Positions 7,284-29,462 of a stretch of DNA of 64,000 nt are shown piece after piece (the stretch's first letter is position 1; every line of letters begins with the position of its first letter). The stretch is from Rhynchopus sp. YZ270_cl-10. Taxonomy: Eukaryota. The stretch is from NCBI GenBank assembly GCA_964035575.1, contig OZ037837.1, positions 1,550,001 through 1,614,000 on the forward strand, in the 5' to 3' direction. The notes beneath the pieces are model-generated. The model worked only from the letters and a program-made list of their open reading frames with translations, had not been told where the DNA came from and made no database searches. The translations under genes were made by a program, and so were the position numbers.

Positions 7284-7413
7284 TTTCAACACTCTGTCAA
7301 CAAGCCTACAACGACCACCCCACCCACCCTGTTTTGTTCACTGCTTACACCCCTCATCAATAAGTCACACCCAACCCCTTCCAGACACCCCTGCACCCTC
7401 CCACCTCCATAAA

Positions 7414-9249
7414 ATGAAGCGTTCCTCCGTGAGTGAGTCCCCCACCACAAAGAAGGCCCGGGTGGACGGCCCTGCACCCTCCCACCTCTCCGAAACACAC
7501 AACATGGTGTCTGACACGCAGCCCACCGCACCACAGATGCCGAGCTGTGAGAACTGTGGCGTGCCTGCACAGCTGCAGTGCGGGATCTGCAAGGAGCTGT
7601 TTTTCTGCGACAAGCCTGCGTGCTTCGAAGTGTTCCACTCATCCATGCGGCCACGTGACCGTGAGGCACATCACGCTTCTGTGGCTCCTTGCGGGACGTC
7701 GTCGAAGTGTGCACAGCACCCAGGACAAGAGCTGTCCCTCGTCTGTGAAGACCCTGCGTGTGGAGACGCGTTGATCTGCATACACTGTGCTTACTTCGAA
7801 CATACGGGACACAAGACAGTTGACATCACGGACTACATGAAACGCCAGCGTGACACCCTCTGCTCACACGTGACAGACCTGACAACACAGCGGACTGCTG
7901 CAGAGGAGAAGTGCCGTGTGCTTGAGGCACTCCCACCCACGGAGGACAGGTACAAAGACCTTCTCCTTCAGACACGCGTCGGGCACCTCGTGATGCGTGA
8001 GGATGTGTCGCGCAGCGAAGTCGTGTGTGAGGAGGAGGTGGCACGGAGCTTCCTCACACAGGCACTCAGTCGTGAAGGGGAGGTGTGTGCGCTGAAGACG
8101 TTTGTTGCGAAGGCAGGACACATGATTGCTGAGTGTGAGGCGGTGTGCCAGCTTGGGGACGACCAGGTGCTGCGTGCGGTCACAGAGTCGCAGGCCGTTG
8201 TGCGGAGCATCAACAGCATGGCAGCGAGTGGAGACCGCCACTGCCTTGTGGGTGCTGCAGACCCACACGCAACGTTTTCCCTGAAGCTGCCTGTTTCGAA
8301 CGTGCACGACGCCCTTGCCCAGATGTCTGCGCTTGTTGTGCCTGTCCTTGTGCAGGGGTTGGATGGAGTGGAACATGAGATTGAGGTGAGTGTGGATGAC
8401 ACGGGCAGGGACTTGTTTCGGAAGGTGGCGTCTGCAGTGGGGTTGCGTGAAGGCTGCTTCGACATGACTTTCAGAGATGAACTGATTGCATCAGGAGAGG
8501 ACGTGGTGCAACTGAGGGGTCACAGGGTTGTTGTAACGCAGGTCAACACAGAGAGGAGGAAGCAGGATGCCATTGCAGCACTTCGTGCGTTGGGTGAGAC
8601 GACACTGACATCACAAAGGTTGGAGCAGGTGAGTGATGAAGGCAGTGATCCGAAGGTGGCTTGCTTGCTCCTGCAGGCACAAGTTGCGACTGCGATTCCG
8701 GATAGCTTCTTCTCGACAGCTGCAGTGACGTGCATTGATCTCAGTCATGCGTCTGCTGTGACTGTGATTGGGGAAGAGTTCCTGTTCGGGTGCGCATCAT
8801 TGACCAATGTTGATCTGAGTGGATTACAATCTGTCACCTCGATTGATATCTCGTTCCTCGGCGAGTGCACTTCATTATCGACTGTTGATCTGAGTGCATT
8901 GCGAGGTGTCACCTCAATTGGGCACTTATTCCTCTACGGGTGCACATCGCTGTCGACAGTAGATCTGAGTGGATTACAAGCCGTCAGGTCGATTGAGGAG
9001 TACTTCCTCTACGGGTGTACTTCGTTGTCGACAGTTGATTTGAGTGGATTGCAAGCCGTCACCTCGATTGGGCAGTGGTTCCTCTCCAACTGCCCTTCAT
9101 TGTCGACAGTTAATCTGAGTGGACTGCAAGCTGTCACCTCGATTGATAAAGACTTCATCTCCGGGTGCAAAGCTTTGAAGACCTTGCACGGAAAGGACAA
9201 ATGCAGCAATACTGTCCTAGGCAGTCTGCCTAAACACTTACGCTGTTGA
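7414..9249 (+). CDS. B-box1/B-box2/coiled-coil - ubiquitin-like - LRR protein, copy 1 (6 LRRs, NLS-like N-terminus)
   Basis: Zinc fingers CENC..C..C...C....C...H and CAQH...C....C....C..C....HTGH, followed by a helical segment, Ubl-like VQGLDGVEHEIEVSVDDTGRDL and 25-aa BspA-like LRRs (STVDLSGLQAVTSIGxxFLxxCxSL). Confidence 0.85.
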   Translation: MKRSSVSESPTTKKARVDGPAPSHLSETHNMVSDTQPTAPQMPSCENCGVPAQLQCGICKELFFCDKPACFEVFHSSMRPRDREAHHASVAPCGTSSKCAQHPGQELSLVCEDPACGDALICIHCAYFEHTGHKTVDITDYMKRQRDTLCSHVTDLTTQRTAAEEKCRVLEALPPTEDRYKDLLLQTRVGHLVMREDVSRSEVVCEEEVARSFLTQALSREGEVCALKTFVAKAGHMIAECEAVCQLGDDQVLRAVTESQAVVRSINSMAASGDRHCLVGAADPHATFSLKLPVSNVHDALAQMSALVVPVLVQGLDGVEHEIEVSVDDTGRDLFRKVASAVGLREGCFDMTFRDELIASGEDVVQLRGHRVVVTQVNTERRKQDAIAALRALGETTLTSQRLEQVSDEGSDPKVACLLLQAQVATAIPDSFFSTAAVTCIDLSHASAVTVIGEEFLFGCASLTNVDLSGLQSVTSIDISFLGECTSLSTVDLSALRGVTSIGHLFLYGCTSLSTVDLSGLQAVRSIEEYFLYGCTSLSTVDLSGLQAVTSIGQWFLSNCPSLSTVNLSGLQAVTSIDKDFISGCKALKTLHGKDKCSNTVLGSLPKHLRC

Positions 9250-9783
9250 CAAGCAAGAACGTGTACAGCATCTTCTCCCTGTGGCAAAATATTCATTAAA
9301 GCTTTTTTACCCCATATTACATGACCACTTTTCTTTTATTCTTTTATCCGCCCATATTAGCGACTCAGGGTTTGTGCTCCTGTATACAGTATAGCCCCTC
9401 CCACACTGCGAAACGGGCAGAGGACCCGAACCGGACCCTACATCGCACAGGATTCATGACCCTGTCTGCAATGATCTCCCGTTCATCTGGCTCATGAGTT
9501 GAAGCGGGCGTAGCGCATATCAGATGAAACCACGATATGGATGTAGGACTGCATGGTTGGGTGTCCACCCCGGTACAGCCGGTCATGTACCAAGGTACAC
9601 TGTCACGAGAGGGCTTTGTATTTCAACTCTACTTTTTATTTTGTACGAGTCCCTCTGGAAATGAAAACTGCGTTACAGTCATGTTGTGTAATAAAGGATA
9701 TTCTTACGCATGTACAAGTCAGTATGTGGGTAGCGTACCAACTAAGCATAAGATGAACGGGGTTGTTATTATTTGACATTTAA

Positions 9784-10482
9784 TACGAGGTGTGTAGTGA
9801 CTCACTTTCAGGAAGGGTTTGAAGTACGGACGAGGATGGATGCAATAATTGAAGGGTTGTGTCGAGGGTACTGGGTTGGGTGGGGAGGGCACAAAAAAAA
9901 AGGGTGAGCAAAAAGAGACAAGAGTGCAGCAGTCTTGGGATATGTGCGTAACGACACCTCCCTTGCGAGCACAGACGTAAAGGTTTGAAAACGGTCAAAG
10001 GGTGAGAACACTGCACGTGAGGCTTAGGTTCACTTGGTTTCATAAAAAAATGTGCTGAACAAAAAAATGGAAAAACGAAATGTGTATGCGTTACCTTTTA
10101 GTACGAGGTGTGTAGTGACTCACTTTCAGGAAGGGTTTGAAGTACGGACGAGGATGGATGCAATAATTGAAGGGTTGTGTCGAGGGTACTGGGTTGGGTG
10201 GGGAGGGCACAAAAAAAAAGGGTGAGCAAAAAGAGACAAGAGTGCAGCAGTCTTGGGATATGTGCGTAACGACACCTCCCTTGCGAGCACAGACGTAAAG
10301 GTTTGAAAACGGTCAAAGGGTGAGAACACTGCACGTGAGGCTTAGGTTCACTTGGTTTCATAAAAAAATGTGCTGAACAAAAAAATGGAAAAACGAAATG
10401 TGTATGCGTTACCTTTTAGTACGAGGTGTGTAGTGACTCACTTTCAGGAAGGGTTTGAAGTACGGACGAGGATGGATGCAAT
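9784..10482. repeat. Tandem repeat, 318-bp unit, about 2.2 copies
   Basis: Identical units start at 9784, 10102 and 10420. The ORF track shows identical spurious ORFs 318 bp apart. Confidence 0.95.
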
Positions 10483-11002
10483 CAAGAGAGGGGGTGGCCA
10501 TTGTGGCAACCTCTTTATCAAAAGTTTGACAGCCTTTTTGGGTGGGATTTCTTCCACTTCGAATGTTGTCTCTTTACTAGATAGCTCTCAACGCTCTACG
10601 CCAATAATGCAAGAAAACACAAAAATACAAAAAAATGCATCCCAACCTTCATTGCTTTGACAAACCCCCTACCCCCACACCCACACCCACATTCCAAAAT
10701 ATCCACTTAATGATTTGCCCGACCCCATTGAAATTCACTATTGTGCGGTTTTTTATCAAAAAGTAACTCACAATGAAGTACCAGCTTGGAGCTGTTACGA
10801 AAATAGTGGGATGTCAGAAAACACCATCAGTGTTTGTTGGTTTCTGTTAGGAGACCCTAGGATTTTTGATAAAGAACGTATTCCGTATGCACCATACATC
10901 TGTGCTGGGTAGGGTTGGCAGTCTCCATCCTCATTCCTTCCTGATCAACAGCACAACCCACATGCACACTTCACTTCAGGAAAATATATGTTTTGTTAAG
11001 AA

Positions 11003-11851
11003 ATGCTTTTCCGTCTATGGCTTCTCGCTGTTCTTGTGCAGGTTGCTTTGGGTGCCGTCAGCTCATCTTATAAGTGCTTGGGGAGTGCTGACTGTCGCGC
11101 GTTCGAGGACACACTTGGAACGTGCATCGATGGTGCCTGCTTGTGCAGCGACAAGACGGATTCCTCAGACTACTGCAGCGGGAACACCCCATGGGCATCA
11201 CCGGATGGGCTCATGAAGGTTCTATATGTGATGAGTTTCAGATTGAACTGCAGCTTGGTAGATTTACCTGTGTTGATCGTCGAGGCCGCGCGCGACAAGG
11301 CGTACAGCCTCGGATTCACCCCTCGGACAAACTTTATCTGTAGTTCGACCGTCCCGTACATGATTCTGAGGGGGACTGTTCCCCTCAGCGACATTGCAGC
11401 CATCTCTGACAAGCTCTCGGACGCTGTCGACGAGGTCCTTGTTGAGGGCATCCGCATCAACACCACCACCTCGCTGAAGGAGGGGACTGGCTCCTCGTGC
11501 CCTGCTGTCTCCCCTGTTGCAGAGAGCACCTCAATTGGGTTTTCTTGTGTTGCTCTCTCCTGCGTTTCTGGATACAGATACACCATGCATTCCAACCACA
11601 CGATAGAGTGCGTCGAGAACGACAGTGACGAGCGCCCCCTTTATGTCAAGGTGGCAATAGGGTTTTTAGGGGCTATGGCTGTCTGTGTTTTGCTCATTAT
11701 TTGTATTGGTAGCGGGGGTGGCGGGAGTTCAGGATCAGGATCAGGATCCAGTTCAGGATCAGGTGCAGGCTGGTTCAGAAGAACACGGTATGAAACAAAA
11801 ATGAAACAGTGGGAGGACGGCGGCCGCGATGGCACTGAGCCGCAATTGTAA
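11003..11851 (+). CDS. Type I membrane protein with signal peptide, Cys-rich (EGF-like) ectodomain segments, one TM helix and Gly/Ser-rich tail
   Basis: Signal MLFRLWLLAVLVQVALG; C-x4-C...C-x4-C-x-C cluster; TM VAIGFLGAMAVCVLLIICIG; GSGGGGSSGSGSG tail. Confidence 0.75.
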   Translation: MLFRLWLLAVLVQVALGAVSSSYKCLGSADCRAFEDTLGTCIDGACLCSDKTDSSDYCSGNTPWASPDGLMKVLYVMSFRLNCSLVDLPVLIVEAARDKAYSLGFTPRTNFICSSTVPYMILRGTVPLSDIAAISDKLSDAVDEVLVEGIRINTTTSLKEGTGSSCPAVSPVAESTSIGFSCVALSCVSGYRYTMHSNHTIECVENDSDERPLYVKVAIGFLGAMAVCVLLIICIGSGGGGSSGSGSGSSSGSGAGWFRRTRYETKMKQWEDGGRDGTEPQL

Positions 11852-12900
11852 GGTGCTGGCAGCTTGCTCGCGTTTTGCAAACCCGTAAACCCGCAAACTT
11901 CTTCTTGGATTTTTGTGAATTTATGTGAATATTTTGGGGTGTCCTAGGGGTACCAGACACTAACACCCACTTTCACATACTTTCACCCCATTTCACCGCA
12001 TTGCACACCATTACAACACTTTGGTGTTTTAGTCTTTACTAAAGTAAACGGAAAGTAGATAATTGGCGTTATTGTTGTTTTGTTTAAGGAGTACACCTAC
12101 GCACTGTTCTCTTCGTCTTTTGTTACTGTTTATACAAGTTGGGCCTAATGCTCGCGCACTGTGTTATGCTCGTATTGTCTGCACATTGTATCCTAGGGCC
12201 GGTTTTTCGCACAGTACCGTCAAGAGAAGTACTGTTGGCAACTAACCTACACCATTACACCTCTTGTTTAGGATACAGCTTTCATACAGCTCACAGTCGC
12301 AGCTTTTAAAGCACATTTTTTATGCGTGTGGCGATTCGTCCTCACTCTTTGTCATCCAACTCAACAGCCTTGGCGTGGGTTGTTTCACGAAATTTGAGGG
12401 AGAAACAGCTACAGTTTTGTTGAATTGGAGTAGGGGATGCGTCCAATGAATCACGTCGTATAGAAGAGTTCAAGAATGTAGGTTTTATTATTATACCTAC
12501 ATGCAATGCTAAAAGGAAATTGAACACCGTACCCCTACTCCCATCCTTTTTCCATTTTTCTAATCCGGGGCGGTTGGAGTAGAGCCACATTTCACCGACA
12601 GGTCGAGGTGTGTGCGTTTCACCACAACCTCTCCCTTTTATCTTTATTGTTTTTATTGATTTATTGTTTGCGGGGGTGGGGAACCAACATAGAAAAGAAA
12701 AGTAGGAGTGTGGTTTCAATTTTTTGAGACCAGCATGAACTGCAGTGCTGCAGACTGCGATGGCATACTCGCTTGTTTCTTGTTCTTCTGCCACAGACTT
12801 GCCCTGACCTTTTATACCTTTACCTGTTTACCGCGGGGTTTTTGCGCTACTTCATCTTTTGTGTATGATTCCACGCAATGCTAAAAGGAAATTGAACACT

Positions 12901-13078
12901 GTTGGTGCTATCCGGGCGGGGGGGGGTTTCACAACTTTTCAGAAATTTTCACTTTCACAACCCTACCCACACACGTTGTTTTCTAAAACCCCTTCCCCGG
13001 ATAGCACTATTGCTTTTATCTATTCAAAAAAAAAATATTTATTTATCAAAAATCCCCCGGGATACGGATAGCACTAAC
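12901..13078. mobile_element. MITE-like insertion with 14-bp TIRs
   Basis: GTTGGTGCTATCCG ... CGGATAGCACTAAC (one mismatch). It is absent from the paralogous segment near 12504-12725 (ttgaacac|cgtacccc empty site). Confidence 0.75.
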
Positions 13079-13583
13079 CGTACCCCTACTCCCTTCCTTT
13101 TTCTATTCTGGGGAGGTTGGAGTAGATTCACATTTCACCGACAGGTCGAGGTGTGTGCGTTTCACCACAACCTCTCCCTTTTGTCTTTATTGTTTTTATT
13201 GCTTCATTGTTTGCGGGGGTGGGGGAACAACATAGAAAAGAAAAGTAGGAGTGCGGTTTCATTTTTTTTCTTTTTGACACCTTCTTTTGGTTTTTCCCTA
13301 CATATGATTTTCCCTACGTGAAAATCATGCGAATATTTCCCCGAGAGCCGTAGGCACCGTCCAGGACTGCAACTTAATTTTTTTCTCCGCCATTTTTCAT
13401 TTTTTTTCTCTGCAACAAATGGTTTGCGGAGTGACTCTGATGTAAAGAAGCACTACATTGCCTTGGCACAACCCCCTACCCCCACACACCCACATTCCAG
13501 AACACACATCCCCACCCCCTCACCCCCTCCTCCTCCCCTCCTCCCCTCCTCCCCTCCTCCTCCCCTCCTCCTCCCCCTCTTCA

Positions 13584-14006
13584 ATGGAGCGCAGGGCACA
13601 GCCTGCTCGGGTGTCTTCTGTTCGTGAGATGTTCAAGGAAGAGAGGCAGATGCGTAGGGAGCAAGTGTGCGAGGAGAACGCAGATGAGTGCACACGTCTG
13701 CAGGAGGCCTTAGAAGGGGGAGGTGACGGGCGGGCAGCAGAGGTGGCCGCGAAAAGGCGCCGGACGAAGCCCGCACACCAGCAGGCCTTTCTGCGGGCGT
13801 GGAGCTCTAAGGCACCTTGCTCGCTGGACGACACCCCCGCAGGGTCAGTTCACGCTGCTTCCTTCGCCCCGGCTCCAACATCAGCACCCCCACAGCTGTG
13901 CTGTGTCTGCAGCTGTCTTGCTCCCTACGCCTGCCCGAGGTGCACCCGGCACTACTGCTGTATCAAATGTCGCGACAAACACGAAACAGTCATCTGCCTT
14001 ATGTAG
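13584..14006 (+). CDS. zf-HIT zinc finger protein, Vps71/Swc6/ZNHIT1-like (SWR1 complex subunit)
   Basis: C-terminal APPQLCCVCSCLAPYACPRCTRHYCCIKCRDKHETVICL and upstream RLQEALE. The ATG follows a long polypyrimidine tract. Confidence 0.75.
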   Translation: MERRAQPARVSSVREMFKEERQMRREQVCEENADECTRLQEALEGGGDGRAAEVAAKRRRTKPAHQQAFLRAWSSKAPCSLDDTPAGSVHAASFAPAPTSAPPQLCCVCSCLAPYACPRCTRHYCCIKCRDKHETVICLM

Positions 14007-15522
14007 ACACAATACAGTATCGAAGAAACGTTGCCACAGAAGCTCAGTGAAATGCATCTCTTCTGTGGGTCAGGGTTGGTTGCAGGCGACGCTTGCTCAC
14101 ACATCCCGCCAACATAACCATACCATGGAAACGGTGCTCAAAGCGGTGTGAGGTGGGTTGCATCTCAGCAGGGAGGTGGAGGAGGAGGAGTCCCTTAGGG
14201 AGTGCTGTGGGTTGTGTTGTATGTACATCAGAGGCGCGTGATCATGTTGCAATTAACTAACAGAGCTGGGAGAAGAGAAGTAAGCAGGTGAGCATTAATT
14301 CGTTTACTACAACGTATGCACAGCATCAGGGGGTAGAGTCGGGCAACAACAGAACACCGAACGATGCAATAAAGTAGTACAGGTCTGCACCCCTTCGGGT
14401 GATTGCGTGAAGAGCTCGTAAGAGAAGCAGTACTGAGGCAGTCAAGATTCAGGTGAAATGGTTTTGCATTATTTTCTGTGAACCTCAAGATGCGTAATGA
14501 AGCAGATCTTTTTGAAGTCGTCGCAGCTGTAGCCGCTTTGGGTGGAAGAGAAGACATTTGTGCCAACTGGAGTTGCTGTCGAAGTCTCCGCATGGGGGTC
14601 TAACATTGCAGGATGGGGTGGGGTGCTCCAGGCAGAGCAGTCGGTAGCATCGGTGGTTGGCACCCCAGTGTACCTGGAAGGGTGGGTGCACTGCTTCTGT
14701 AGGAGGCTTTGGTGTTGTACGATTTGATGCATCGGTGAGAGGTGTATGGGGTGTGGGGTGGGTGTGGTTGGCAAAGAGCAATAACTTAGCATGTGTGGGG
14801 AGTTGTTTTTGGGATTAATCAGCGTGGTGATGACTGCGCTTTGTTCAGGTGAAGCATGCGAGACGTCTTGGTTGTCTTTGGATAGGATTTGGTGCAAGGT
14901 TAGGTGCACCCGGTGCACGTCGTGTAAAGGTACACTGTCAGAGAGGGCTTTGTATTTCAAGTGAACTTTGAATTTTAAGGTGTTGTTCAGGTGTGGGGTG
15001 TGGTGTGTGTACTTTCAACTTCTCTTTTCAATGTGATGATTCTACGTTTCGCACTGTTGTTGCGTTCATCGCCCTTTCTGTTATGTCTCCTTTTCCTAGC
15101 AGCATTCCTCCCCATCTCTATCGCAACTGAACAAGATAAAACAAAAAGCTCGCGTTTCTTTTATCGAACAGATTTTGTCCTCCGCCCCGTACCCAAAACG
15201 TAAACACCACTTTGAATCAGAAAAAATATTTTCCTCTCCTTTTTTTCTTCCACACGCGCTGCTTGTGTTCGCTTAGTTTTATCAAAAAGCTTTCCCTGCC
15301 ATCACGATGTTTCGTGTTTGCCACAGACGACGCTTTTGTCGTTACAAAGAGGCTAAAGGCTTCTGCCAACATTGCACACACCCTGGTTACTCACGAAGGT
15401 GCTGAGGAGATTGGAACACAGTTAAGTGTAAATGCTGTCACCACTCTGTTTCCATCCCATAAACACACACCCAACCCCTTCCAGACACCCCTGCACCCTC
15501 CCACCTCTTCGAAACACACAAC

Positions 15523-17205
15523 ATGGTGTCTGACACGCAGCCCACCGCACCACAGATGCCGAGCTGTGAGAACTGTGGCGTGCCTGCACAGCTGCAGTGC
15601 GGGAACTGCACGGAGTTGTTCTTCTGCGACACACCTGCATGCTTCGAAGTGTTCCACCCAAGGGCGCGTGACCGTGAGGCACATCGCGCTTCTGTGACTG
15701 CGTACGGGACATCGTCGAAGTGTGCACAGCACCCAGGCCAAGAGCTGTCCCTCGTCTGTGAAGACCCTGCGTGTGGAGACGCGTTGATCTGCATACACTG
15801 TGCTTACTTCGGACATACGGGACACAAGACAGTTGACATCACGGACTACATGAAACGCCAGCGCAACACCCTCTGCTCACACGTGGCAGACCTGACAACA
15901 CAGCGGACTGCTGCAGAGGAGAAGTGCCGTGTGCTTGAGGCACTCCCACCCACGGAGGACAGGTACAAAGACCTTCTCCTTCAGACACACGTCGGGCACT
16001 TCGTGATGCGTGAGGATGTGTCGCGCAGCGAAGTCGTGTGTGAGGAGGAGGTGGCACGGAGCTTCCTCACACAGGCACTCAGTCGTGAAGGGGAGGTGTG
16101 TGCGCTGAAGACGTTTGTTGCGAAGGCAGGACACATGATTGCTGAGTGCGAGGCGGTGTGCCAGCTTGGGGACGACCAGGTGCTGCGTGTGGTCACAGAG
16201 TCGCAGGCCGTTGTGCGGAGCATCAACAGCATGGCAGCGAGTGGAGACCGCCACCGCCTTGTGGGTGCTGCAGACCCACACACAACGTTTTCCCTGAAGC
16301 TGCCTGTTTCGAACGTGCACGACGCCCTTGTCCAGATGTCTGCGCTTTTTGTGCCTGTCTTTGTGCAGGGGTTGGATGGAGTGGAACACGAGATTGAGGT
16401 GAGTGTGGATGACACGGGCAGGGACTTGTTTCGGAAGGTGGCGTCTGCAGTGGGGTTGCGTGAAGGCTGCTTCGACATGACTTTCAGAGATGAAGTGATT
16501 GCAGAAGCAGAGGACGTGGTGCAGCTGAGGGGTCACAGGGTTGTTGTAACGCAGACCAAGACACAGAGGACGAAGCAGGATGCTATTGCAGCACTTCATG
16601 CGTTGGGTGATACAACACTTACATCACAAAGGTTGGAGCAGGTGACTGATCAAGGAAGTGATCCGAAGGTAGCTTGCTTGCTCCTGCAGGCAGGGGTTGT
16701 GACTGCGATTCCGAACAACTTCTTCTCGCGTACTGCAGTGACGTGCATTGATCTCAGTCATGCGTCTGCTGTGACTGCGATTGGGGAGGAATTTCTTAGT
16801 AGCTGCACAGCTTTGACCAAGGTTGATCTGAGTGGATTGCAAGCTGTCACCGTGATTGGGGACTCGTTCCTCCTCGGGTGCACATCATTGTCGACAGTTG
16901 ACCTAAGTGGATTTCAAGCTGTCACCTCGATTGGGAATGAGTTCGTCTCCGAGTGCCGCTCTTTGTTGACAGTTGATCTCAGCACATTCCAAAGTGTCAC
17001 TTCGATTGGCAAGTGGTTCCTCTCCGACTGCGATTCATTGTCTACCGTTGACCTGAATGGATTGCGAGCTGTCAACCACATATGCAACGATGATCCCTTT
17101 GACCTTTGCGGTTTCCTGGTTAATTGCCCAGCGTTGAAGACCTTGCATGGAAAGGACAGGTGCAGCAAAGTTGTCCTACGCGAGGTACAGAAATTAGGCC
17201 TTTGA
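15523..17205 (+). CDS. B-box/coiled-coil - Ubl - LRR protein, copy 2 (5 LRRs)
   Basis: Near-identical N-terminal half to 7414..9249 with divergent LRR variable positions. Lacks the MKRSS...KKAR extension. Confidence 0.85.
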   Translation: MVSDTQPTAPQMPSCENCGVPAQLQCGNCTELFFCDTPACFEVFHPRARDREAHRASVTAYGTSSKCAQHPGQELSLVCEDPACGDALICIHCAYFGHTGHKTVDITDYMKRQRNTLCSHVADLTTQRTAAEEKCRVLEALPPTEDRYKDLLLQTHVGHFVMREDVSRSEVVCEEEVARSFLTQALSREGEVCALKTFVAKAGHMIAECEAVCQLGDDQVLRVVTESQAVVRSINSMAASGDRHRLVGAADPHTTFSLKLPVSNVHDALVQMSALFVPVFVQGLDGVEHEIEVSVDDTGRDLFRKVASAVGLREGCFDMTFRDEVIAEAEDVVQLRGHRVVVTQTKTQRTKQDAIAALHALGDTTLTSQRLEQVTDQGSDPKVACLLLQAGVVTAIPNNFFSRTAVTCIDLSHASAVTAIGEEFLSSCTALTKVDLSGLQAVTVIGDSFLLGCTSLSTVDLSGFQAVTSIGNEFVSECRSLLTVDLSTFQSVTSIGKWFLSDCDSLSTVDLNGLRAVNHICNDDPFDLCGFLVNCPALKTLHGKDRCSKVVLREVQKLGL

Positions 17206-18376
17206 CAAGCAAGAAAAAGTTCACTGCACAGGGGTTGTTGTGAGTCTTCTCGCCTCGCACGTGTGAGCTGCTGCACCGTAACGACACTGGCGATAATGGG
17301 TGGGAAGGGACAAAAATAAGGAGGGTTCACAAAAATGGGTTTGGCGTTTTGGGGTGGGTTTGGGTGAGACAAGGTCAGGGTGATTGGTAGGATGTGAAGT
17401 GTGTGCACTGCATTGGTTTTCATTAGTGCATTGTGAGGTGTGATCTGGTTCATGGAATCGTTAGGCGATGCAAAAGAATGGTACAGTCAAGGTTTTGTTA
17501 CGTGTATTACACTTGACGAACGTTTTCTCTTTTCTTCTTCTGGGATATGACTCTTGTGTTCATATCTTCGGAAATCTTTTACTTTTTCGCCAAGACGACT
17601 CTCATGTGCTCCTCACCACCACACCTACGTCAACAACAGGTAAGACCTATTGGTGTGGGAGGGTTTGGGGTTTCTTCTTTCTCTCAGTGAAGTCTTGAAC
17701 AAGTTTGAGATGAGTTTTACATATTTTTCAGACCAGAGAAGTAGTGAGATAAGCTAGCCACTTGTTTTACGTTATGTAAAAATTTATGTTTGCGTTATGT
17801 ACTAATCATCAGATACACTCCATCCACTCCTATGTGCGGGGGTGTTTGTCGAGGAGGAATAATTAAGCATGTTTGGGGAGTTGTTTTTGGGATTAATCAG
17901 CGTGGTGATGACTGTGCTTTGTTCAGGTGAAGCATGCGAGACGTCTTGGTTGTCTTTGCATTTGGTGCAAGGTTAGGTGCACCTGGTGCACGTCATGTAG
18001 AGTTACACTGTCAGAGAGGGCTTTGTATTTCAAGTGAACTTTCAATTTGAAGGTGTTGTTCAGGTGTGGGGTGTGGTGTGTGTACTTTCAACTTCTCTTT
18101 TCAATGTGATGATTCTACGTTTCGCACTGTTGTTGCGTTCATCACCCTTTCTGTTATGTCTCCTTTTCCTAGCAGCATCCCTCCCATCCCTATCGCAACG
18201 AAGAAACAAAAAAGCAAAACAGGCTTCTGCCAACATTTCACACACCCTGGTTACTCACGAAGGTGCTGAGGAGATTGTGAACACAGTTAAGTATAAATGC
18301 TGTCACCACTCTGTTTCTATCCCATAAACACACACCCAACCCCTTCCAGACACCCCTGCACCCTCACCTCCATAAA

Positions 18377-20065
18377 ATGAAGCGTTCCTCCGTGACTGAG
18401 TCCCCCACCACAAAGAAGGCCCGGGTGGACGGCCCTGCACCCTCCCACCTCTCCGAAACACACAATGTGGGTGCCACGCAGCCCACCGCACCACAGATGC
18501 CGAGCTGTGAGAACTGTGGCGTGCCTGCACAGCTGCAGTGCGGGATCTGCAAGGAGCTGTTCTTCTGCGACACACCTGCGTGCTTCGAAGTGTTCCACTC
18601 ATCCATGCGGCCACGTGACCGTGAGGCACATCGCGCTTCTGTGACTCCGTACGGGACGTCGTCGAAGTGTGCACATCACCCAGGACAAGAGCTGTCACTC
18701 GTCTGTGAAGACCCTGCATGTGGAGACACGTTGATCTGCTTGCGTTGTGCGTACGTCGGACATACGGGACACAAGACAGTTGACATCACGGACTACATGA
18801 AACGCCAGCGTGACACCCTCTGCTCACACGCGACAGACCTGACAGCACAGCGGACTGCTGCAGAGGAGAAGTGCCGTGTGCTTGAGGCACTCCCACCCAC
18901 AGAGGACAGGTACAAAGACCTTCTCCTGCAGACACACGTCGGGCACTTCGTGATGCGTGAGGATGTGTCGCGCAGCGAAGTCGTGTGTGAGGAGGAGGTG
19001 GCACGGAGCTTCCTCACACAGGCACTCAGTCGTGAAGGGGAGGTGTGTGCGCTGAAGACGTTTGTTGCGAAGGCAGGACACATGATTGCTGAGTGCGAGG
19101 CGGTGTGCCAGCTTGGGGACGACCAGGTGCTGCGTGTGGTCACAGAGTCGCAGGCCGTTGTGCGGAGCATCAACAGCATGGCAGCGAGTGGAGACCGCCA
19201 CCGCCTTGTGGGTGCTGCACACCCACACGCAACGTTTTCCCTGAAGCTGCCTGTTTCGAACGTGCACGACGCCCTTGTCCAGATGTCTGCGCTTTTTGTG
19301 CCTGTCCTTGTGCAGGGGTTGGATGGAGCAGAACACGAGATTGAGGTGAGTGTGGATGACACGGGCAGGGACTTGCGTCGGAAGGTGGCGTCTGCAGTGG
19401 GGTTGCGTGAAGGCTGCTTCGACATGACTTTCAGAGATGAAGTGATTGCAGAAGGAGAGGACGTGGTGCAGCTGAGGGGTCACAGGGTTGTTGTAACGCA
19501 GACCAACACAGAGAAGAGGAAGCAAGATGCCATTGCAGCACTTCGTGCGTTGGGTGAGAGAAGACTTACATCAGAAAGGTTTTGGCAGGTGCGTGATCCG
19601 AAGGTGGCTTGCTTGTTCCTGCAGGCACAAGTTGTGACTGCGATTCCAGACAACTTCTTCTCGAGAACTAGAGTGACGTGCATTGATCTCAGTCATGCGT
19701 CTGCTGTGACTGCGATTAGGGGCGAGTTTCTTAGTCACTGCACAGCTTTGACTGATGTTGATCTGAGTGGATTACAATCTGTCACCTGGATTGGGGATTA
19801 TTTTCTCTCCGGGTGCACATCATTGTTGACAGTTGACCTCAGCGCATTCCAAAGTGTCACCACTCTTGGGGATTTTTTCCTCTGCGGGTGCACTTCATTG
19901 TCGACAGTTGATCTGAGTGGATTGCGAGCTGTCACCGAGATATGGATCGAGGATCCCTCGGACCCTTTAGACTTCATGTCCAAGTGCCCAGCGTTGAAGA
20001 CCCTGCATGGAAAGGACAGGTGCAGCAATGTTGTCCTACGCGAGGTACAGAAATTAGGCCTTTGA
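18377..20065 (+). CDS. B-box/coiled-coil - Ubl - LRR protein, copy 3 (4 LRRs, NLS-like N-terminus)
   Basis: Paralog. The 5' end resembles copy 1, while the C-terminus (LREVQKLGL) and 3' flank resemble copy 2. Confidence 0.85.
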   Translation: MKRSSVTESPTTKKARVDGPAPSHLSETHNVGATQPTAPQMPSCENCGVPAQLQCGICKELFFCDTPACFEVFHSSMRPRDREAHRASVTPYGTSSKCAHHPGQELSLVCEDPACGDTLICLRCAYVGHTGHKTVDITDYMKRQRDTLCSHATDLTAQRTAAEEKCRVLEALPPTEDRYKDLLLQTHVGHFVMREDVSRSEVVCEEEVARSFLTQALSREGEVCALKTFVAKAGHMIAECEAVCQLGDDQVLRVVTESQAVVRSINSMAASGDRHRLVGAAHPHATFSLKLPVSNVHDALVQMSALFVPVLVQGLDGAEHEIEVSVDDTGRDLRRKVASAVGLREGCFDMTFRDEVIAEGEDVVQLRGHRVVVTQTNTEKRKQDAIAALRALGERRLTSERFWQVRDPKVACLFLQAQVVTAIPDNFFSRTRVTCIDLSHASAVTAIRGEFLSHCTALTDVDLSGLQSVTWIGDYFLSGCTSLLTVDLSAFQSVTTLGDFFLCGCTSLSTVDLSGLRAVTEIWIEDPSDPLDFMSKCPALKTLHGKDRCSNVVLREVQKLGL

Positions 20066-24056: not shown

Positions 24057-25139
24057 ATGGAAATATGTGTGGAGAGCTTTGACGGAGAGAAGTACACAGT
24101 CGAGGTGGGTGTGGATGATACAACTGCGGACATACGGCGGAAGGTGGCGTCTGCAGCAGAGTTGTGCGAAGACGGCTTTGACATAAGCTTTGGCGGGAAG
24201 GTGATGGCCGAAGGAGACGACACGACGCAGCTGAGTGCTGGGGACACGATTGTTCTGACGAAGACGCTGTCGCAGAAGGACGACGCCATTGCAGCTCTTC
24301 GTGACTTGGGTGAGACCAACCTGACGACAGAACGGTTCGAAGGTCTGGAAGATCCCAAGCTGATTCATTTGTTTCTACAGGCAGAAGTTGTTACTGAGAT
24401 ACCGAACACATTCTTGCAAGGGAGTACGTTTGAAGAACTTGATCTCAGTGGTGTGTCGGGTGTCACTGCAATAGGCGCCAACGTCCTCTCCCACTGCAGG
24501 TCACTGCACACAGCTGATTTATCTGGGTGGAACAATGTGACGCACATCTCCCACTACGTCCTCGAGGGCGGTGAAATGACTGCCTTAACCAGTGTTGACT
24601 TGTCGGGGTGGAGCAATGTGACGCACATAGGGTACTGCTTCCTGCAAAAGTGCGTCAAATTGAGGAAACTTGACTTCTCTGGGTGGAACAATGTGACGCA
24701 TATTAAGGACTACTTCTTGTCTGGCTGCACCGCGGTATCCACACTTGACTTGTCTGAGTGGAGGAATGTGATACAGATCGACAGGTACTTCCTGAGTTAC
24801 TGCAGCGCATTGACCACACTAGACTTATCTGGGTGGAGGAATGTGACGCATATTGATAAGTGCTTCATGCGGGCCTGCACCGCGTTGACCACAGTTGACT
24901 TATCTGGGTGGGGCAGGCTGACGCAGATAGAGGAAGGCTTCCTCTCAGGATGCATTGCATTGAGAAGGCTTGACGTGTCTGGGTGGAGGAGTGTGACGAT
25001 GATCGGGCCAGGCTTCCTCGAAGGATGCAACATGCATCCAAGAAGCATCAACATCACCGGATCGAGCAGTGTTGTGTCAGACTGTGTGCATGGACGTAAC
25101 ATCATGGACAATACCAAGTGTCAATGTGTGTGCACGTGA
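24057..25139 (+). CDS. Ubl - LRR - CaaX protein, copy 1 (8 LRRs)
   Basis: N-terminal Ubl MEICVESFDGEKYTVEVGVDDTTADIRRKV; 25-aa LRRs TTLDLSGWRNVTHIxxxFLxxCxAL; C-terminus KCQCVCT. Confidence 0.88.
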   Translation: MEICVESFDGEKYTVEVGVDDTTADIRRKVASAAELCEDGFDISFGGKVMAEGDDTTQLSAGDTIVLTKTLSQKDDAIAALRDLGETNLTTERFEGLEDPKLIHLFLQAEVVTEIPNTFLQGSTFEELDLSGVSGVTAIGANVLSHCRSLHTADLSGWNNVTHISHYVLEGGEMTALTSVDLSGWSNVTHIGYCFLQKCVKLRKLDFSGWNNVTHIKDYFLSGCTAVSTLDLSEWRNVIQIDRYFLSYCSALTTLDLSGWRNVTHIDKCFMRACTALTTVDLSGWGRLTQIEEGFLSGCIALRRLDVSGWRSVTMIGPGFLEGCNMHPRSINITGSSSVVSDCVHGRNIMDNTKCQCVCT

Positions 25140-25652
25140 GGACGTGCATCTTTCGAGAGGCTCGCTACTCGTTAGCCTGTTCAAACAACCACTTTTTGAT
25201 TTTGCAGTACGTTCCAAAAGGAAGCGCACCATTTTCTGCATGTTTTTTTTTTTTTGATGTAGTTGTTTCCCAGTGACTTAAAGGGGGGTGGGGGATAAAA
25301 CAATTATCCCCCGTTTTTTCTCCCCCATTTTATTTTATTTTTAGTAAACACGTAGTATTTGACAAAATGCTCGAGACCCTCGTGAAAAGTCGCGCGTTCG
25401 GCGTATCCACCTCCCCGCTTGCTTTCCCCCTCTGTGGAAGCGAACAACAAACAACCAAAATTTTTCCTCTTCCCGTTTTTATCCTTTGAGCAACAAGCAA
25501 AGAGTAACGAGTCTCTCGAGCATTTTATCCCCCACTACAGTTATCCCCCACTTCCCACACCGCGTTTTTGGTGTGGATTTTCCTTGGGGATGGGGATATT
25601 CAGATGGGAAAAAAGAGAGATTTTTTTTTTTATCCCCCACTACAACTATCCC

Positions 25653-26446
25653 CAGGGGTCCTAAGAGTGGTAACTTTTACCACTTCTGAGGTGACCTTTT
25701 TTATTTTTTTTGAAATCCGAAGGTCACTTCGAAGTGACCTTCGAAAAGTGCCCTAAAAAGTGACCTTCCCTTTTTATTTTTGAAATCCGGTGTCACGAAG
25801 TGACCTCGGATGCTTAACATACACCGGGAACACGTTGGAGGGTACGGTATTTTTTTTCTTTTTTGCCAAGATCAGTGGTCTGCAGTGCTGCAGGTTGCCA
25901 CAATGTACAATTTTCAGCGCAATTTTTTTTGGCAAAGTTGCGTACCGTGGCTTCGCCAGAAACTTTCGTTTTGGCAAAATACGTAAGTAAAATTTGCGGA
26001 AACTGACGATAATTACCAACGACAGTGCCATTTTATGGCAAATTTTTTAGAAATGTTGCGTACCGTGGCTTCGCCAGGAACTTTTGGGTGACATGACCGC
26101 CGTTTCTTTTATAAATGTACTCATGTTACTGATAAGAAGGCTGACACCCACTCAACATCGGCCAAAACATCTGCCTATGGCTGTGTTGTGTTGTTCGTGG
26201 TAGCATAATGGTGGCACCAGACTGCGAGACCGCGAAATTGCCTCAAAAAAAATCGTCTCTAGTGCCCTGTCCCTATTATACGGCGATAACCAACGTCCAG
26301 TGTATGTCCGAGGAATTTGCACCTTTTCAACTTCACTTTTGTTGTTCCTCTGAGGGGGAAAGGTTTTTTTTTTCCTCCCCAAAAAACGAGAAGTGACCTT
26401 GAAGTTACCATTTTTATTTTTTTTGAGAACAGCGTTAGGACCCCTG
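25653..26446. mobile_element. Non-autonomous hAT-type element nested in the previous element
   Basis: Perfect 12-bp TIR CAGGGGTCCTAA/TTAGGACCCCTG, 8-bp TSD ACTATCCC (25645-25652 and 26447-26454), and subterminal AAGTGACCT repeats. Confidence 0.9.
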
Positions 26447-26489
26447 ACTATCCCCCATTTTTTGAGAAGAAACAACTGGCGATATTTTT

Positions 26490-27110
26490 TATTTTATCCC
26501 CGCTTGAGACCATGAATTTCACGCCCCTTCACAAAATCGTGAAGGAGGTGCGTGAATTTATTTTCCGGTATTTCACGCTCAAAAAATAAATTCACGCTCA
26601 GAAAAATAAATTCACGCTCAGAAAAATAAATTCACGCTCAGAAAATCGTAGAACTGAACTCTCGAAAATTTTTTTGGAGGCCTTTGGAGGCCCAATTTTG
26701 CAATTAAAGCCAGAAAAGAGGCATTTTGAGCCATTCTAGGGGTCTCAAACGCATTTTTCAGTTAATTTTCTGTAGCACACAAACCAAGGATACACACCGT
26801 TTTTTTTTCCCAATATTCTTCCAAAATCCCAAATGACACCTCAAAAACGTACGAGGGCACCTGTGGAGAGTGAGTCCGACACGAACACAAGTGACTCATC
26901 GTCATCGTCTTCCTCATCTTCATCAGAAGTACAGCCGCTTAAGCGCCACAAACCCGCTGCACCAGTTCTGGCTCAAGGCGCTGTCCAGCGCTAAGAGTTC
27001 CACATAAAAAAACTGAATCAAAAATCATCATAAAAATAACCATCCCACCCTCTTCTCTTTGTACGTGAAAACGGGTTGTGAAATTCATGGTCTCATTTGG
27101 AGATAAAATA
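26490..27110. mobile_element. Inverted-repeat element with internal 20-bp tandem repeat
   Basis: TGAGACCATGAATTTCAC near 26505 is mirrored by GTGAAATTCATGGTCTCA near 27078. (AAAAATAAATTCACGCTCAG)x3 lies at about 26582-26641. Confidence 0.6.
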
Positions 27111-27118
27111 ATATATTT

Positions 27119-27263
27119 TCGTGAATTTATACCAGTATTTCACTTACAGGTGGAAACAGCCCTCGGGGAAGCATTTTTCCCCTCGGGCTTCGCCCTCGGG
27201 AAAAAATGCTTCCCCTCGGGCTGTTTCCACCTGTGCGTGAAATACTGGAAAATAAATTCACGA
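27119..27263 (-). repeat. Long hairpin with GCGAAGC loop and CGAG/CGAG internal motifs (minus strand)
   Basis: Arms cgtgaatttat..ccagtatttcac..acaggtggaaacagccc..gggaagcattttt are mirrored on the right. The centre is gcttcgc at 27187-27193. Confidence 0.9.
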
Positions 27264-27876
27264 TAATAATATATATTATCCGCCATTCTACAGTTATCCC
27301 CCACTACAATTATCCCTCCCCCCCTTTATCATTGACAGCGCAAACGTCACAACAGCAGGTCTTATGTTTTGTTAAGGTACACTATCACGAGAGTGCTTTG
27401 TATTTGTGTTTGTATTTCACGTCAAGTTTGTTTTGCAGTAACTTCTGTAGTAACGATGTGTGGAAGAGATGCCCATTCATCTACCACGTGTTTTTGTTTC
27501 ACTTTTGTGTGTTGTGAGAGAAATGTAAAAGGTTGTTGGAACCTGTTGTCATGATAAAAGCCATGACGCCATTGAGCGACTCATAGGCGCGTCAGTATCG
27601 GTTGTTTGCGCTTCATATCGCAGAGGATAGAGAAACTGAAACGTCATTAAAAATTACAAAACTGATGAGCACTGATCAGAGCAGCCACTCTGCCTCGGTT
27701 CAAATCGGGCACATGTCTGCACATCTCTTCAGTGAACTGAACACTGGAGAACTATTTTTACAAACAAACCACACACCCCAGCCTTTCTTCTTTGCACCTT
27801 GCCAATCCCCTTCTCCTTGTGTCACTACGCTTTCTTGCCACACCAAAACACTTGCACAGAACAGAGACACAAAACC

Positions 27877-28878
27877 ATGGAAATATGTGTGGAGAGCTTT
27901 GACGGAGAGAAGTACACAGTCGAGGTGGGTGTGGATGATACAACTGCGGACATACGGCGGAAGGTGGCGTCTGCAGCAGAGTTGTGCGAAGACGGATTTG
28001 ACATAAGCTTTGGCGGGAAGGTGATGGCAGAAGGAGACGACACGATGCAGCTGAGTGCTGGGGACACGATTGTTCTGACGAAGACGCTGTCGCAGAAGGA
28101 CGACGCCATTGCAGCTCTTCGTGACGTGGGTGAGACCAACCTGACGACAGAGAGGTTCAAAGGTCTCAAAGATCCCAAGCTGATTCATTTGTTTCTGCGG
28201 GCAGAAGTTGTTACTGAGATACCGAACACATTCTTGCAAGGGAGTACGTTTGAAGAACTTGATCTCAGTGGTGTGTCAGGTGTCACTGCAATAGGCGCCA
28301 ACTTCCTCTGCGAATGCAGGTCATTGCACACAGCTGATTTATCTGGGTGGAGCAATGTGACGCACATCGACAGTAGCTTTCTCGAGGCCTGCAGCACATT
28401 GAAGGCACTTCACTTGACTGGGTGGAGCAATGTCACGCAGGTTGGATCCTCGTTCCTCGGCTGCTGCAGCACATTGACGACGGTTGACTTGTCTAGATGG
28501 AGCAATGTGACGCACATCGACAGGTACTTCCTCGAGGGCTGCAGCGCGTTGACCACACTTGACTTATCTGGGTGGAGGAATGTGACGCATATTGAGTACG
28601 GCTTCTTGTCGGACTGCACCGCGTTGACCACAGTTGACTTATCTGGGTGGGACAGGCTGAAGCGGATTAAGCATGGCTTCCTCTCAGGATGCATTGCATT
28701 GAGAAGGCTTGACTTGTCTGGGTGGAGGAGTGTGACGGAGATCGGGACAGGCTTCCTCGAAGGATGCAGCATACATCCAAGAAGCATCAACATCACCGGA
28801 TCGAGCTGTGTTGTGTCAGACTGTGTGCATGGACGTAACATCATGGACAATACCAAGTGTCACTGTGTGTGCACGTGA
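27877..28878 (+). CDS. Ubl - LRR - CaaX protein, copy 2 (7 LRRs)
   Basis: Paralog of 24057..25139. ATG in the aaaaccATGgaa context; ends KCHCVCT. Confidence 0.88.
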   Translation: MEICVESFDGEKYTVEVGVDDTTADIRRKVASAAELCEDGFDISFGGKVMAEGDDTMQLSAGDTIVLTKTLSQKDDAIAALRDVGETNLTTERFKGLKDPKLIHLFLRAEVVTEIPNTFLQGSTFEELDLSGVSGVTAIGANFLCECRSLHTADLSGWSNVTHIDSSFLEACSTLKALHLTGWSNVTQVGSSFLGCCSTLTTVDLSRWSNVTHIDRYFLEGCSALTTLDLSGWRNVTHIEYGFLSDCTALTTVDLSGWDRLKRIKHGFLSGCIALRRLDLSGWRSVTEIGTGFLEGCSIHPRSINITGSSCVVSDCVHGRNIMDNTKCHCVCT

Positions 28879-29462
28879 GGACGGGCATCTTTCGAGAGGC
28901 TCGCTACTCGTTAGCCTGTTCAAACAACCACTTTTTGATTTTGCAGTACTTTCCAAAAGGAAGTGCACGATTTTCTGCATGATTTTTTTTGGACTTACTT
29001 GTTTTTCTGGTGACTTATCATTGACAGCGCAAACGTCACAACAGCAGGCCTTATGTTTTGTTAAGGTAGGCCAGCACACGCTAGACAACCCAGTGCACTT
29101 GTTGTGCTCCCGAATTCGCCCGAACTGTATTTCGGTGGGTCCAAGTATGTCCCACGAAGCACGAGAGCGAGACGCGGAAAATAATTTATTTTTTCTTTTG
29201 TTTTCTTTCCATTATTTGCCATATCCCGAAGTCAGATTCTATATTCATTTCTCTCTTTTGCTTTCCTTGAGAAGAGCCCTTTGCGTCCCCTCTCTCTGCT
29301 ATCTCTGCTATGTGTCTTTTTCTTCGCAAATTGAGAACTATTTTTTCGAACAAACCACACACCCCAGCCTTTCTTCTTTGCACCTTGCCAATCCCCTTCT
29401 CCTTGTGTCACTACGCTTTCTTGCCACACCAAAACACTTGCACAGAACAGAGACACAAAACC

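What the first reader, a model, noticed from the sequence alone, without database searches (positions are those of the whole stretch)
7414..20065. TRIM-like architecture without RING: B-box1/B-box2/coiled-coil fused to Ubl and variable LRRs
Seen: two B-box-type Zn fingers and a helical segment, then the same Ubl-helix-LRR core as the CaaX family. Compare RKVASAVGLREGCFDMTF with RKVASAAELCEDGFDISF, and KQDAIAALRALGET with KDDAIAALRDLGET. LRR counts are 6, 5, 4 and 4, with the same hypervariable positions. Established: TRIM proteins use B-box/CC to oligomerise a variable C-terminal recognition domain. Inference: an independently assembled TRIM-like restriction factor in which a Ubl may route bound targets to the proteasome or p97.
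Basis: partly seen in the sequence, partly recalled or inferred. Interest (0 to 1): 0.78.

Follow-up and report, generated by a model that had tools for sequence, protein, structure and literature searches.

The report
TRIM-like protist proteins with variable LRRs
A single-celled eukaryote, likely a diplonemid, carries dozens of related genes that join two TRIM-type zinc fingers and a predicted coiled-coil stalk to a ubiquitin-like domain and a leucine-rich-repeat tip varying at three positions per repeat, likely forming a repertoire of intracellular sensors of invaders, although no target and no degradation route is shown.

Summary
The architecture is real. Three intact genes (611, 560, 562 aa) encode B-box1, B-box2, a TRIM-length helical stalk, a beta-grasp Ubl, a helical cap and 6, 5 and 4 BspA-type 25-residue LRRs. 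The family is large: 74 B-box/stalk paralogue clusters on 15 long contigs, plus 37 Ubl-LRR relatives, many with CaaX or NLS-like tails. All 16 zinc ligands are essentially invariant. Three sites per repeat are hypervariable (3.4-3.8 bits) and two of them aromatic-rich, with pN/pS about 1.5. The same stalk also carries SPRY or WD40 in other paralogues, so the scaffold is TRIM-related and swaps its tip. The proteasome/p97 idea is weak: the Ubl lacks the Ile44 and Arg42 equivalents, is acidic, and is lost or truncated in 14 of 68 members. This LRR class also occurs in another diplonemid, Holosporales bacteria and probable giant viruses. Best reading: a diversifying, likely dimeric intracellular receptor family in a host-symbiont/virus conflict (about 0.5). 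Oligomerisation, expression and targets are untested. Dictyostelium B-box+FNIP proteins are a partial precedent.

The parts
7414..9249 (+). Copy A, 611 aa: NLS-like extension, B-box1, B-box2, stalk, Ubl, helical cap, 6 LRRs plus cap
7389..7488 (+). 81-bp unit bounded by a direct repeat (copies at 7389 and 7470) that supplies the first ATG and a predicted bipartite-NLS-like KR...KKAR motif; also in copy C (18354/18433), absent from copy B
   Evidence: present in 12 of 61 B-box1-bearing members
7546..7671 (+). B-box1-type zinc finger (C45 C48 C56 C59 C65 C70 H75 H86)
   Evidence: ligands invariant in 61-66 aligned members each; weak ANCHR-like_BBOX hits in 16 of 33; weak PML B1-box fold match
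7708..7812 (+). B-box2 (C99 H102 C111 C116 C122 C125 H130 H133)
   Evidence: zf-B_box E 1e-4, just under the cut-off; profile hit to TRIM5/CypA B-box2-CC, E 1.2e-6; ligands invariant except H133, 73 of 74
7813..8328 (+). Helical stalk with TRIM-like order: long helix region, hairpin helix, extended linker, last helix
   Evidence: compared with TRIM20 in PMC4455283
8338..8541 (+). Ubiquitin-like beta-grasp domain without Ile44/Arg42 equivalents
8542..8691 (+). Helical N-cap of the LRR domain, shared with the CaaX and NLS-tailed families
8692..9249 (+). 25-residue Cys-ladder BspA/TpLRR-type repeats, hypervariable at repeat positions 20, 21, 24, with C-cap
15523..17205 (+). Copy B, 560 aa, no NLS-like extension; B-box1 15565-15684, B-box2 15721-15825, stalk 15826-16341, Ubl 16351-16554, 5 LRRs from 16705
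18377..20065 (+). Copy C, 562 aa, with NLS-like extension; B-box1 18506-18631, B-box2 18668-18772, stalk 18773-19288, Ubl 19298-19501, 4 LRRs from 19640
55841..57455 (+).
60884..61769 (+). Copy E, same frameshift (after about 61325), breaks off inside the Ubl
24057..41530 (+). Array of the sister family Ubl-helix-LRR-CaaX (intact ORFs with ATG at 24057, 27877, 33593, 35519, 39635, plus fragments); end coordinate approximate

Best explanation
These genes encode RING-less TRIM-like proteins whose B-boxes and stalk likely form an antiparallel dimer that holds two LRR domains, and whose three hypervariable sites per repeat likely form a variable binding edge that recognises intracellular invaders or their proteins (likely endosymbiotic bacteria or giant viruses). 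Shown: domain order, invariant zinc ligands, beta-grasp fold in the model, a large paralogue family, sharply localised variability, and variation in repeat number. Inferred: dimerisation and B-box-driven higher-order assembly by analogy with TRIM5 and TRIM20; targeting to different compartments through CaaX, NLS-like tails or the optional N-terminal NLS-like insert; and a conflict-driven role. The Ubl is most likely an accessory adaptor using a surface other than the Ile44 patch (its most conserved residues lie on helix 1), and is dispensable in some members. Binding would neutralise targets by coating or clustering them, with degradation as an optional, unproven step.
For: 74 B-box/stalk clusters (90% identity) on 15 long ENA contigs and 37 Ubl-helix-LRR clusters without B-boxes among the best 120 of 136 hits. 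Sixteen zinc ligands invariant bar one substitution. Stalk: 111 residues from B-box2 to the hairpin turn in 48 of 61 members, against a 107-residue first helix in TRIM20 (PMC4455283). Top structural matches of the N-terminal model include TRIM5, TRIM72 and KAP1. Paralogue P0292 has B-box-B-box-stalk-SPRY, SPRY E 2e-8 above cut-off; P0066 ends in WD40. Entropy 3.4-3.8 bits at repeat positions 20, 21, 24, against at most 2.3 elsewhere (193 repeats); 265 distinct triplets in 310 repeats against 58 at strand positions 5/6/8; aromatic/His in 30% and 27% at positions 21 and 24, against at most 2% at positions 2, 5, 6, 8, 10. pN at these sites over whole-repeat pS is 1.53 (bootstrap 1.16-2.0; 10 repeats of the intact copies) and 1.56 (1.42-1.74; 40 CaaX repeats). 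No hydrophobic 19-mer above 1.52, so likely intracellular. The closest outside repeats come from Holosporales bacteria, the diplonemid Flectonema and probable giant viruses.
Against: The same positions vary in outside proteins of this LRR class, and the equivalent turn is the most variable site of viral and amoebal FGxxFN repeats (PMC9525666), so variability is partly a property of the fold. In the position-matched first repeat, synonymous change is also raised at the variable codons (pS 1.03 on 8.7 sites, against 0.12 elsewhere), which fits local conversion or mutation as well as selection. Among window copies the stalk, Ubl and cap show pN/pS near 1 on few changes. Coiled-coil periodicity is patchy: p 0.016 for 138-173, 0.78 for 178-215, 0.037 for 200-247, uncorrected. 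Five members have lost about half of the stalk, and 2 of 5 window copies are broken. The structural Z of 10.9 to TRIM5 is within the range that helical bundles reach by common arrangement.
Confidence: 0.5

Rival explanations
1. Degradation adaptors: the LRRs catch targets and the Ubl docks them on the proteasome or p97 without a RING, in the manner of shuttle factors or midnolin (recalled).
For: True beta-grasp fold. Ubl kept whole in 54 of 68 members and across three subfamilies at about 40-50% identity. The Leu8 equivalent stays hydrophobic in nearly all of 71. One paralogue carries an extra ubiquitin-like domain ending in LRGG (P0029). Viral FGxxFN repeats are often fused to F-boxes (PMC9525666).
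Against: The Ile44 equivalent is Ser/Thr/Cys in 58 of 71 and the Arg42 equivalent is Asp/Gly/Cys in 54 of 71; median net charge is -7. The Ile44 patch is the usual surface for proteasome receptors (established knowledge, recalled). The Ubl is absent in 11 and truncated in 3 of 68 members, through several different junctions, with LRRs kept.
Confidence: 0.17
2. A birth-and-death family in a repeat-rich region whose diversity reflects duplication, conversion and relaxed constraint at tolerant surface sites, with no recognition arms race.
For: Broken copies are common. pN/pS is near 1 in stalk, Ubl and cap among window copies. In-frame losses of Ubl or half the stalk are tolerated. Synonymous sites are raised in the variable codons of the first repeat.
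Against: Zinc ligands are invariant over 61-74 members. B-boxes show pN/pS 0.29-0.36 in intact copies. Variability sits at three sites, with pN above background pS and aromatic enrichment at two of them. Repeat numbers change in frame, up to about 12.
Confidence: 0.15
3. Variable binders for host-internal conflicts or regulation: for example suppressing selfish elements in the nucleus, self/non-self discrimination, or tuning autophagy like Dictyostelium AreA.
For: NLS-like motifs on 12 of 61 B-box members and on 23 of 42 non-B-box rows of the tree. The B-box+FNIP protein AreA binds the host protein Atg101 and dampens autophagy (PMC4554924).
Against: Membrane-anchored (CaaX) and untagged versions share the same variable sites, which fits surveillance of several compartments better than one nuclear target. 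No partner was found.
Confidence: 0.18

Closest known systems
RING-less TRIM proteins (TRIM16, TRIM20/pyrin; six human B-box/CC proteins in PMC2533329)
   Same: B-box(es) followed by a stalk of about 110 residues with hairpin, extended linker and last helix, then a C-terminal binding domain; a paralogue even carries SPRY.
   Different: Protist host. The C-terminal part is Ubl plus helical cap plus BspA-type LRRs, which I did not find described for TRIMs in the passages read. No RING or PYD. Dimerisation untested.
Dictyostelium B-box + FNIP-repeat proteins (AreA, DDB_G0279871)
   Same: Protist protein pairing a TRIM-like B-box with LRR-class repeats (PMC4554924); FNIP repeats vary most at the two residues of the GxxF turn (PMC9525666).
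   Different: FNIP repeats are 22 residues, these are 25-residue Cys-ladder repeats; no Ubl is reported for AreA in the passages read; AreA has a host partner in autophagy.
BspA-like (TpLRR) expansions of Trichomonas vaginalis and Entamoeba histolytica
   Same: Large, variable BspA-type LRR families; several Entamoeba members end in CAAX (PMC2843621), like the sister family here.
   Different: Those are discussed as surface or lipid-anchored proteins; the Trichomonas paper has 0 occurrences of 'ubiquitin' in its main text. No B-box stalk.
finTRIM and TRIM5-type antiviral expansions
   Same: Tandem expansion with diversification in the C-terminal binding domain (PMC2657112, seen as search listing only).
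   Different: Those have a RING and a B30.2 domain and are vertebrate; here there is no RING, and diversity is in repeat number and three sites per repeat.
Ubl shuttle factors and midnolin
   Same: A Ubl joined to a target-binding domain; midnolin's Ubl is among the fold matches.
   Different: No Ile44/Arg42 equivalents, acidic surface, Ubl dispensable in some paralogues; no UBA domain found by Pfam.

Membership tests
TRIM (RBCC) family, strict | N-terminal RING domain | tested here: not met
   No RING family in Pfam scans. A RING pattern matched 1 of 78 members, and that match lies across the two B-boxes.
TRIM (RBCC) family, strict | B-box2 with eight zinc ligands | tested here: met
   zf-B_box in 21 of 33 members at E up to 0.05, best 3e-5; 22.7 bits against a cut-off of 24.1 for copy A; TRIM5/CypA profile hit E 1.2e-6; ligands invariant except 1 of 74 at H133.
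TRIM (RBCC) family, strict | B-box1 preceding B-box2 | tested here: met
   Eight invariant Cys/His; weak ANCHR-like_BBOX in 16 of 33; PML B1-box TM 0.60, rmsd 2.9 but E 0.47. The subtype (animal B-box1 or plant/ANCHR-like) is not resolved.
TRIM (RBCC) family, strict | Coiled-coil stalk with hairpin, L2 linker and last helix | tested here: inconclusive
   Length and element order match TRIM20 and TRIM chains lead the fold lists, but the monomer model folds back, residues 187-204 have low confidence and periodicity is patchy.
TRIM (RBCC) family, strict | Antiparallel homodimer and higher-order assembly | not testable with these tools
   Needs a dimer model or biophysics.
TRIM (RBCC) family, strict | E3 ligase activity | not testable with these tools
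   No RING; B-box E3 activity needs an assay.
RING-less TRIM-like (B-box/CC) proteins | B-box(es) plus stalk plus exchangeable C-terminal domain | tested here: met
   The same N-terminal module carries Ubl-LRR, SPRY (P0292) or Ubl plus WD40 (P0066).
Ubiquitin-like beta-grasp domain | Beta-grasp fold | tested here: met
   TM about 0.78, rmsd 1.6-1.9 over 73-76 residues to ISG15 and ubiquitin; Pfam ubiquitin above cut-off in four CaaX-family ORFs and a fragment and in P0070.
Proteasome-binding UBL shuttle domain | Leu8-Ile44-Val70 hydrophobic patch with nearby Arg42 | tested here: not met
   Ile44 to Ser/Thr/Cys (58 of 71), Arg42 to Asp/Gly/Cys (54 of 71), inferred Val70 position Thr/Lys; Leu8 retained. 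The importance of the patch is recalled knowledge.
BspA/TpLRR-type LRR | LRR_5 profile and TpLRR fold | tested here: met
   LRR_5 above cut-off in all three copies; best fold match T. pallidum TpLRR, E 5e-6. The repeat is 25 residues with a Cys ladder.
Restriction factor / pattern-recognition receptor | Positive selection at the binding surface | tested here: inconclusive
   pN/pS about 1.5 between repeats, but synonymous change is also raised in the position-matched test.
Restriction factor / pattern-recognition receptor | Binds and restricts a pathogen, or is induced by infection | not testable with these tools
   No functional data available.

The most novel reading that the evidence does not exclude
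A diplonemid has built a compartment-patrolling innate immune repertoire of more than 100 receptors by taking an LRR class also used by its endosymbiotic bacteria and giant viruses, fusing it to a Ubl, and sending it to membranes (CaaX), the nucleus (NLS) or TRIM5-like lattices (B-box/stalk), where it cages invaders or their effectors without any RING ligase.
Probability: 0.2. Interest if true: 0.85.

Novelty: new variant of a known kind. Interest (0 to 1): 0.58.

Why it matters
How free-living protists detect intracellular bacteria and giant viruses is largely open. This family offers a concrete, testable candidate: a TRIM-type scaffold outside animals that swaps its tip (SPRY, WD40, Ubl-LRR), a repeat domain with three programmable sites, and sister families with different predicted addresses. 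It also adds to the evidence that B-box/stalk modules with exchangeable binding domains are not confined to animals. The Ubl with a remodelled surface points to an unknown partner rather than the standard proteasome route.

Tried and rejected
No whole genome is held for this window, so copy number rests on protein clusters. Complex prediction of the stalk dimer was not available: no verdict. The wide VIA search and VIA on the full-length model were not obtained; only the second look on the N-terminal model ran. Sequencing runs: no RNA holder listed; X7 is a guessed RNA run with a small share and was not used as evidence. Summed contig depth was not used as copy number. No longer fused form of the B-box/stalk was found among 792 candidates of 1071-3055 aa (weak evidence). 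No relatives were found in JGI metagenome contigs (278 pattern matches, none confirmed) or viral contigs (60 matches, none confirmed). P0273 could not be placed in viral contigs, and P0244 gave only weak LRR hits among phages, so the giant-virus label rests on a recalled N-terminal KYLKYK motif. The representative search used a profile that included LRRs, so its top 150 were dominated by LRR proteins; 7 of 140 new representatives carried a non-LRR family domain, and distant B-box/stalk relatives may lie below the list. Atlas hits were all under 0.9: B-box clusters at 0.84-0.88, FNIP/BspA and ubiquitin+DUF285 clusters at 0.76-0.83; leads only. The 'LRR0-1 variable' and 'framework' rows were mis-indexed and are discarded; one search replaces them. 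The careful tree did not finish; the quick tree used 91 of 118 rows (27 without a full Ubl+helix dropped) and gives B-box members one side of a branch with support 75, neither shown nor rejected. [quoted passage not shown] A neighbour-gene search for lineage was mixed: diplonemid and dinoflagellate transcriptomes and a chytrid at about 39-41%. Three look-ups of earlier findings returned nothing.
Full report
Observation. Three intact single-exon ORFs lie in the stated range: 7414-9249, 15523-17205 and 18377-20065, 85-86% identical to the first. The quoted motifs are all present. LRR counts of 6, 5 and 4 hold. Contigs of runs X2, X3 and X4 match the LRR stretch of copy A with 0 differences (8810-9124 or longer), so the repeats are unlikely to be an assembly artefact, though one run may be the window's own source.

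Host. All ORFs with Pfam families are on the + strand, and 21 of 22 long minus-strand ORFs overlap plus-strand ones. The window also holds a solute-binding-domain receptor gene. A protein of the diplonemid Flectonema neradi carries the same LRR class and ends in a CaaX-like motif. A neighbour gene gave mixed hits, among them the diplonemid Namystynia. I infer a euglenozoan, likely a diplonemid; this is not established.

Domains. B-box2 matches Pfam zf-B_box just under cut-off and the TRIM5/CypA B-box2-coiled-coil by profile at E 1.2e-6. B-box1 has only weak family hits and a weak PML B1-box match. However, all sixteen Cys/His ligands are invariant across 61-74 aligned members, bar one His-to-Tyr. 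The model of copy A (mean pLDDT 81, pTM 0.52) shows helices at 138-172 and 206-245 with an unsure gap, a hairpin helix at 249-274, an extended stretch, and a helix at 294-305. TRIM20 has the same order, with a 107-residue first helix (PMC4455283, passages read). Here the distance from B-box2 to the turn is 111 residues in 48 of 61 members. The N-terminal model (pLDDT 63) retrieves TRIM5, TRIM72, KAP1 and CONSTANS B-boxes at weak E-values, below three Toxoplasma coiled-coil chains. VIA gives Z 10.9, rmsd 3.3, 131 residues to a TRIM5 chimera, only 1.5 above unrelated helical proteins. Coiled-coil periodicity is present at both ends of the long helix but not in 178-215. The stalk is therefore TRIM-like by length, order and context, while dimer formation is untested. 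The middle domain superposes on ISG15 and ubiquitin (TM about 0.78, rmsd under 2). The repeats are BspA/TpLRR-type.

Family. Of 136 hits, the best 120 include 74 clusters with B-box and/or stalk on 15 long ENA contigs, and 37 with Ubl-helix-LRR only. That these come from one organism is likely but not shown, and the search was limited to 336-1070 residues. In a quick tree of 91 of 118 rows, the 49 B-box members form one side of a branch (support 75, not starred), beside clusters with CaaX tails (11) or basic NLS-like tails (23). This fits a single fusion but does not prove it. An 81-bp repeat-bounded unit adds an NLS-like N-terminus to copies A and C but not B, and to 12 of 61 members; the NLS reading is a recalled motif. 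The B-box/stalk module also carries SPRY (P0292, E 2e-8) or Ubl plus WD40 (P0066). So the scaffold is TRIM-related and exchanges its tip. Sardiello et al. held the tripartite motif to be animal-specific but noted B-boxes in protists and six RING-less human members (PMC2533329, passages). Marin later found subfamily A TRIMs in excavates and other groups (PMC3503706, passages).

Variability. In 193 repeats of the closest subfamily, positions 20, 21 and 24 (the x's of IGxxFLx) reach 3.4-3.8 bits, against at most 2.3 elsewhere; the other two subfamilies show the same three peaks. Positions 21 and 24 are aromatic/His in 27-30% of repeats. In the first repeat and its lead-in, identity among 24 paralogues is 32% at the variable sites against 80-90% in every other domain. 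Between repeats in the window, pN at these sites exceeds whole-repeat pS by about 1.5 in both families. Against this: outside proteins of the class vary at the same sites; the equivalent turn is the most variable part of FGxxFN repeats (PMC9525666, first part and passages read); and in the position-matched first repeat of four copies synonymous change is also high at these codons. Selection is suggested, not proven.

The Ubl. Aligned to ubiquitin, the Ile44 position is Ser, Thr or Cys in 58 of 71, and Arg42 is Asp, Gly or Cys in 54 of 71; Leu8 stays hydrophobic and the median charge is -7. The near-invariant residues cluster around helix 1 (D329, T330, R336-A341, L344). Of 68 members with stalk and cap, 11 lack the Ubl and 3 keep part of it, through several distinct junctions, most with several LRRs intact. 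Five members also lost about half of the stalk in frame. The canonical proteasome-receptor route is thus unlikely, and the Ubl is not needed by every member.

Conflict context. Among 145 outside and representative proteins scored, 71 have four or more such 25-residue repeats. The best-scoring include a Holosporales protein (P0310), unnamed proteins with a KYLKYK start that I recall as typical of giant viruses, the Flectonema protein and, lower down, a Bodocaedibacter LRR protein. The top viral fold match is a Mimiviridae LRR protein. Diplonemid endosymbionts encode LRR proteins next to secretion effectors (10.1101/719211, passages). A 2026 preprint titled as finding no endosymbiotic gene transfer in diplonemids (listing only) cautions against assuming transfer; I did not test direction.

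Mechanism. Most likely (0.5) these are intracellular receptors. The stalk would dimerise and present two LRR domains, B-boxes would cluster dimers on a repetitive or abundant target, and the stacked variable sites would set specificity, with CaaX and NLS-like signals spreading the repertoire over compartments. The Ubl would recruit an unknown partner. Rivals are degradation adaptors (0.17), host-internal regulators such as AreA (0.18; PMC4554924, passages) and relaxed birth-and-death (0.15).

Novelty. A search for B-box, LRR, ubiquitin-like domain, protist and expansion together found 0 papers; diplonemid with LRR expansion found 1 unrelated paper; none of the 15 listed for diplonemid/B-box/BspA/TRIM/LRR mentions diplonemids. 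The library lacks most subscription papers and I read no supplements, where domain tables of diplonemid genomes could list this architecture. It is not a strict TRIM (no RING), but it is a RING-less TRIM-like protein and likely works like one. Dictyostelium B-box+FNIP proteins and Entamoeba BspA-CAAX proteins are partial precedents. Verdict: a real, apparently undescribed architecture and a good candidate for protist innate immunity; new variant of a known kind; interest 0.58.

Noticed in passing
window 57-5579 (+): 1840-aa protein with WD40 propellers and, by eye, ankyrin-like, ADP-ribosyltransferase-like and NACHT-like (GEGGSGKT) segments plus pentapeptide-like repeats: an NLR-like candidate immune gene directly upstream of the LRR cluster.
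   Followed up: no
window 24057-41530 (+): Tandem array of Ubl-helix-LRR genes ending in CaaX (CQCVCT), five intact and several broken, with the same three variable sites and pN/pS 1.56.
   Followed up: partly
P0292 (ENA contig of 1.01 Mb): B-box1-B-box2-stalk-SPRY protein: a RING-less TRIM-SPRY layout, likely in the same protist.
   Followed up: partly
P0027, P0043, P0048, P0055, P0066: In-frame loss of about 50-60 residues from the middle of the stalk, giving natural short-hairpin forms resembling engineered mini-TRIMs; three also lack the Ubl.
   Followed up: partly
window 7813-8328 and paralogues: Synonymous divergence among intact copies is about 0.02 in the stalk against 0.13 in the B-boxes, suggesting gene conversion that homogenises the putative dimer surface.
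   Followed up: no
P0286 (ENA contig of 664 kb): A divergent N-terminal Ubl-like segment (by eye) followed by 13 repeats of the same LRR class and a long unrelated tail; possibly a second Ubl-LRR lineage.
   Followed up: no
P0029: Family member with an extra N-terminal family Ubl and a more ubiquitin-like domain ending in LRGG in place of B-box1.
   Followed up: no
window 45343-48582 (+): Receptor-like gene with a bacterial solute-binding domain, transmembrane segments and, by eye, a degenerate cyclase-like C-terminal part.
   Followed up: no
window 9779-10164 and 10097-10482: Near-perfect direct duplication (99.7% over 386 bases), next to a very high-copy short element at about 9527-9640.
   Followed up: no
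window 21140-22162 (+): Secreted-looking glycoside hydrolase family 130-like gene (weak Pfam hit) between the two LRR arrays.
   Followed up: no
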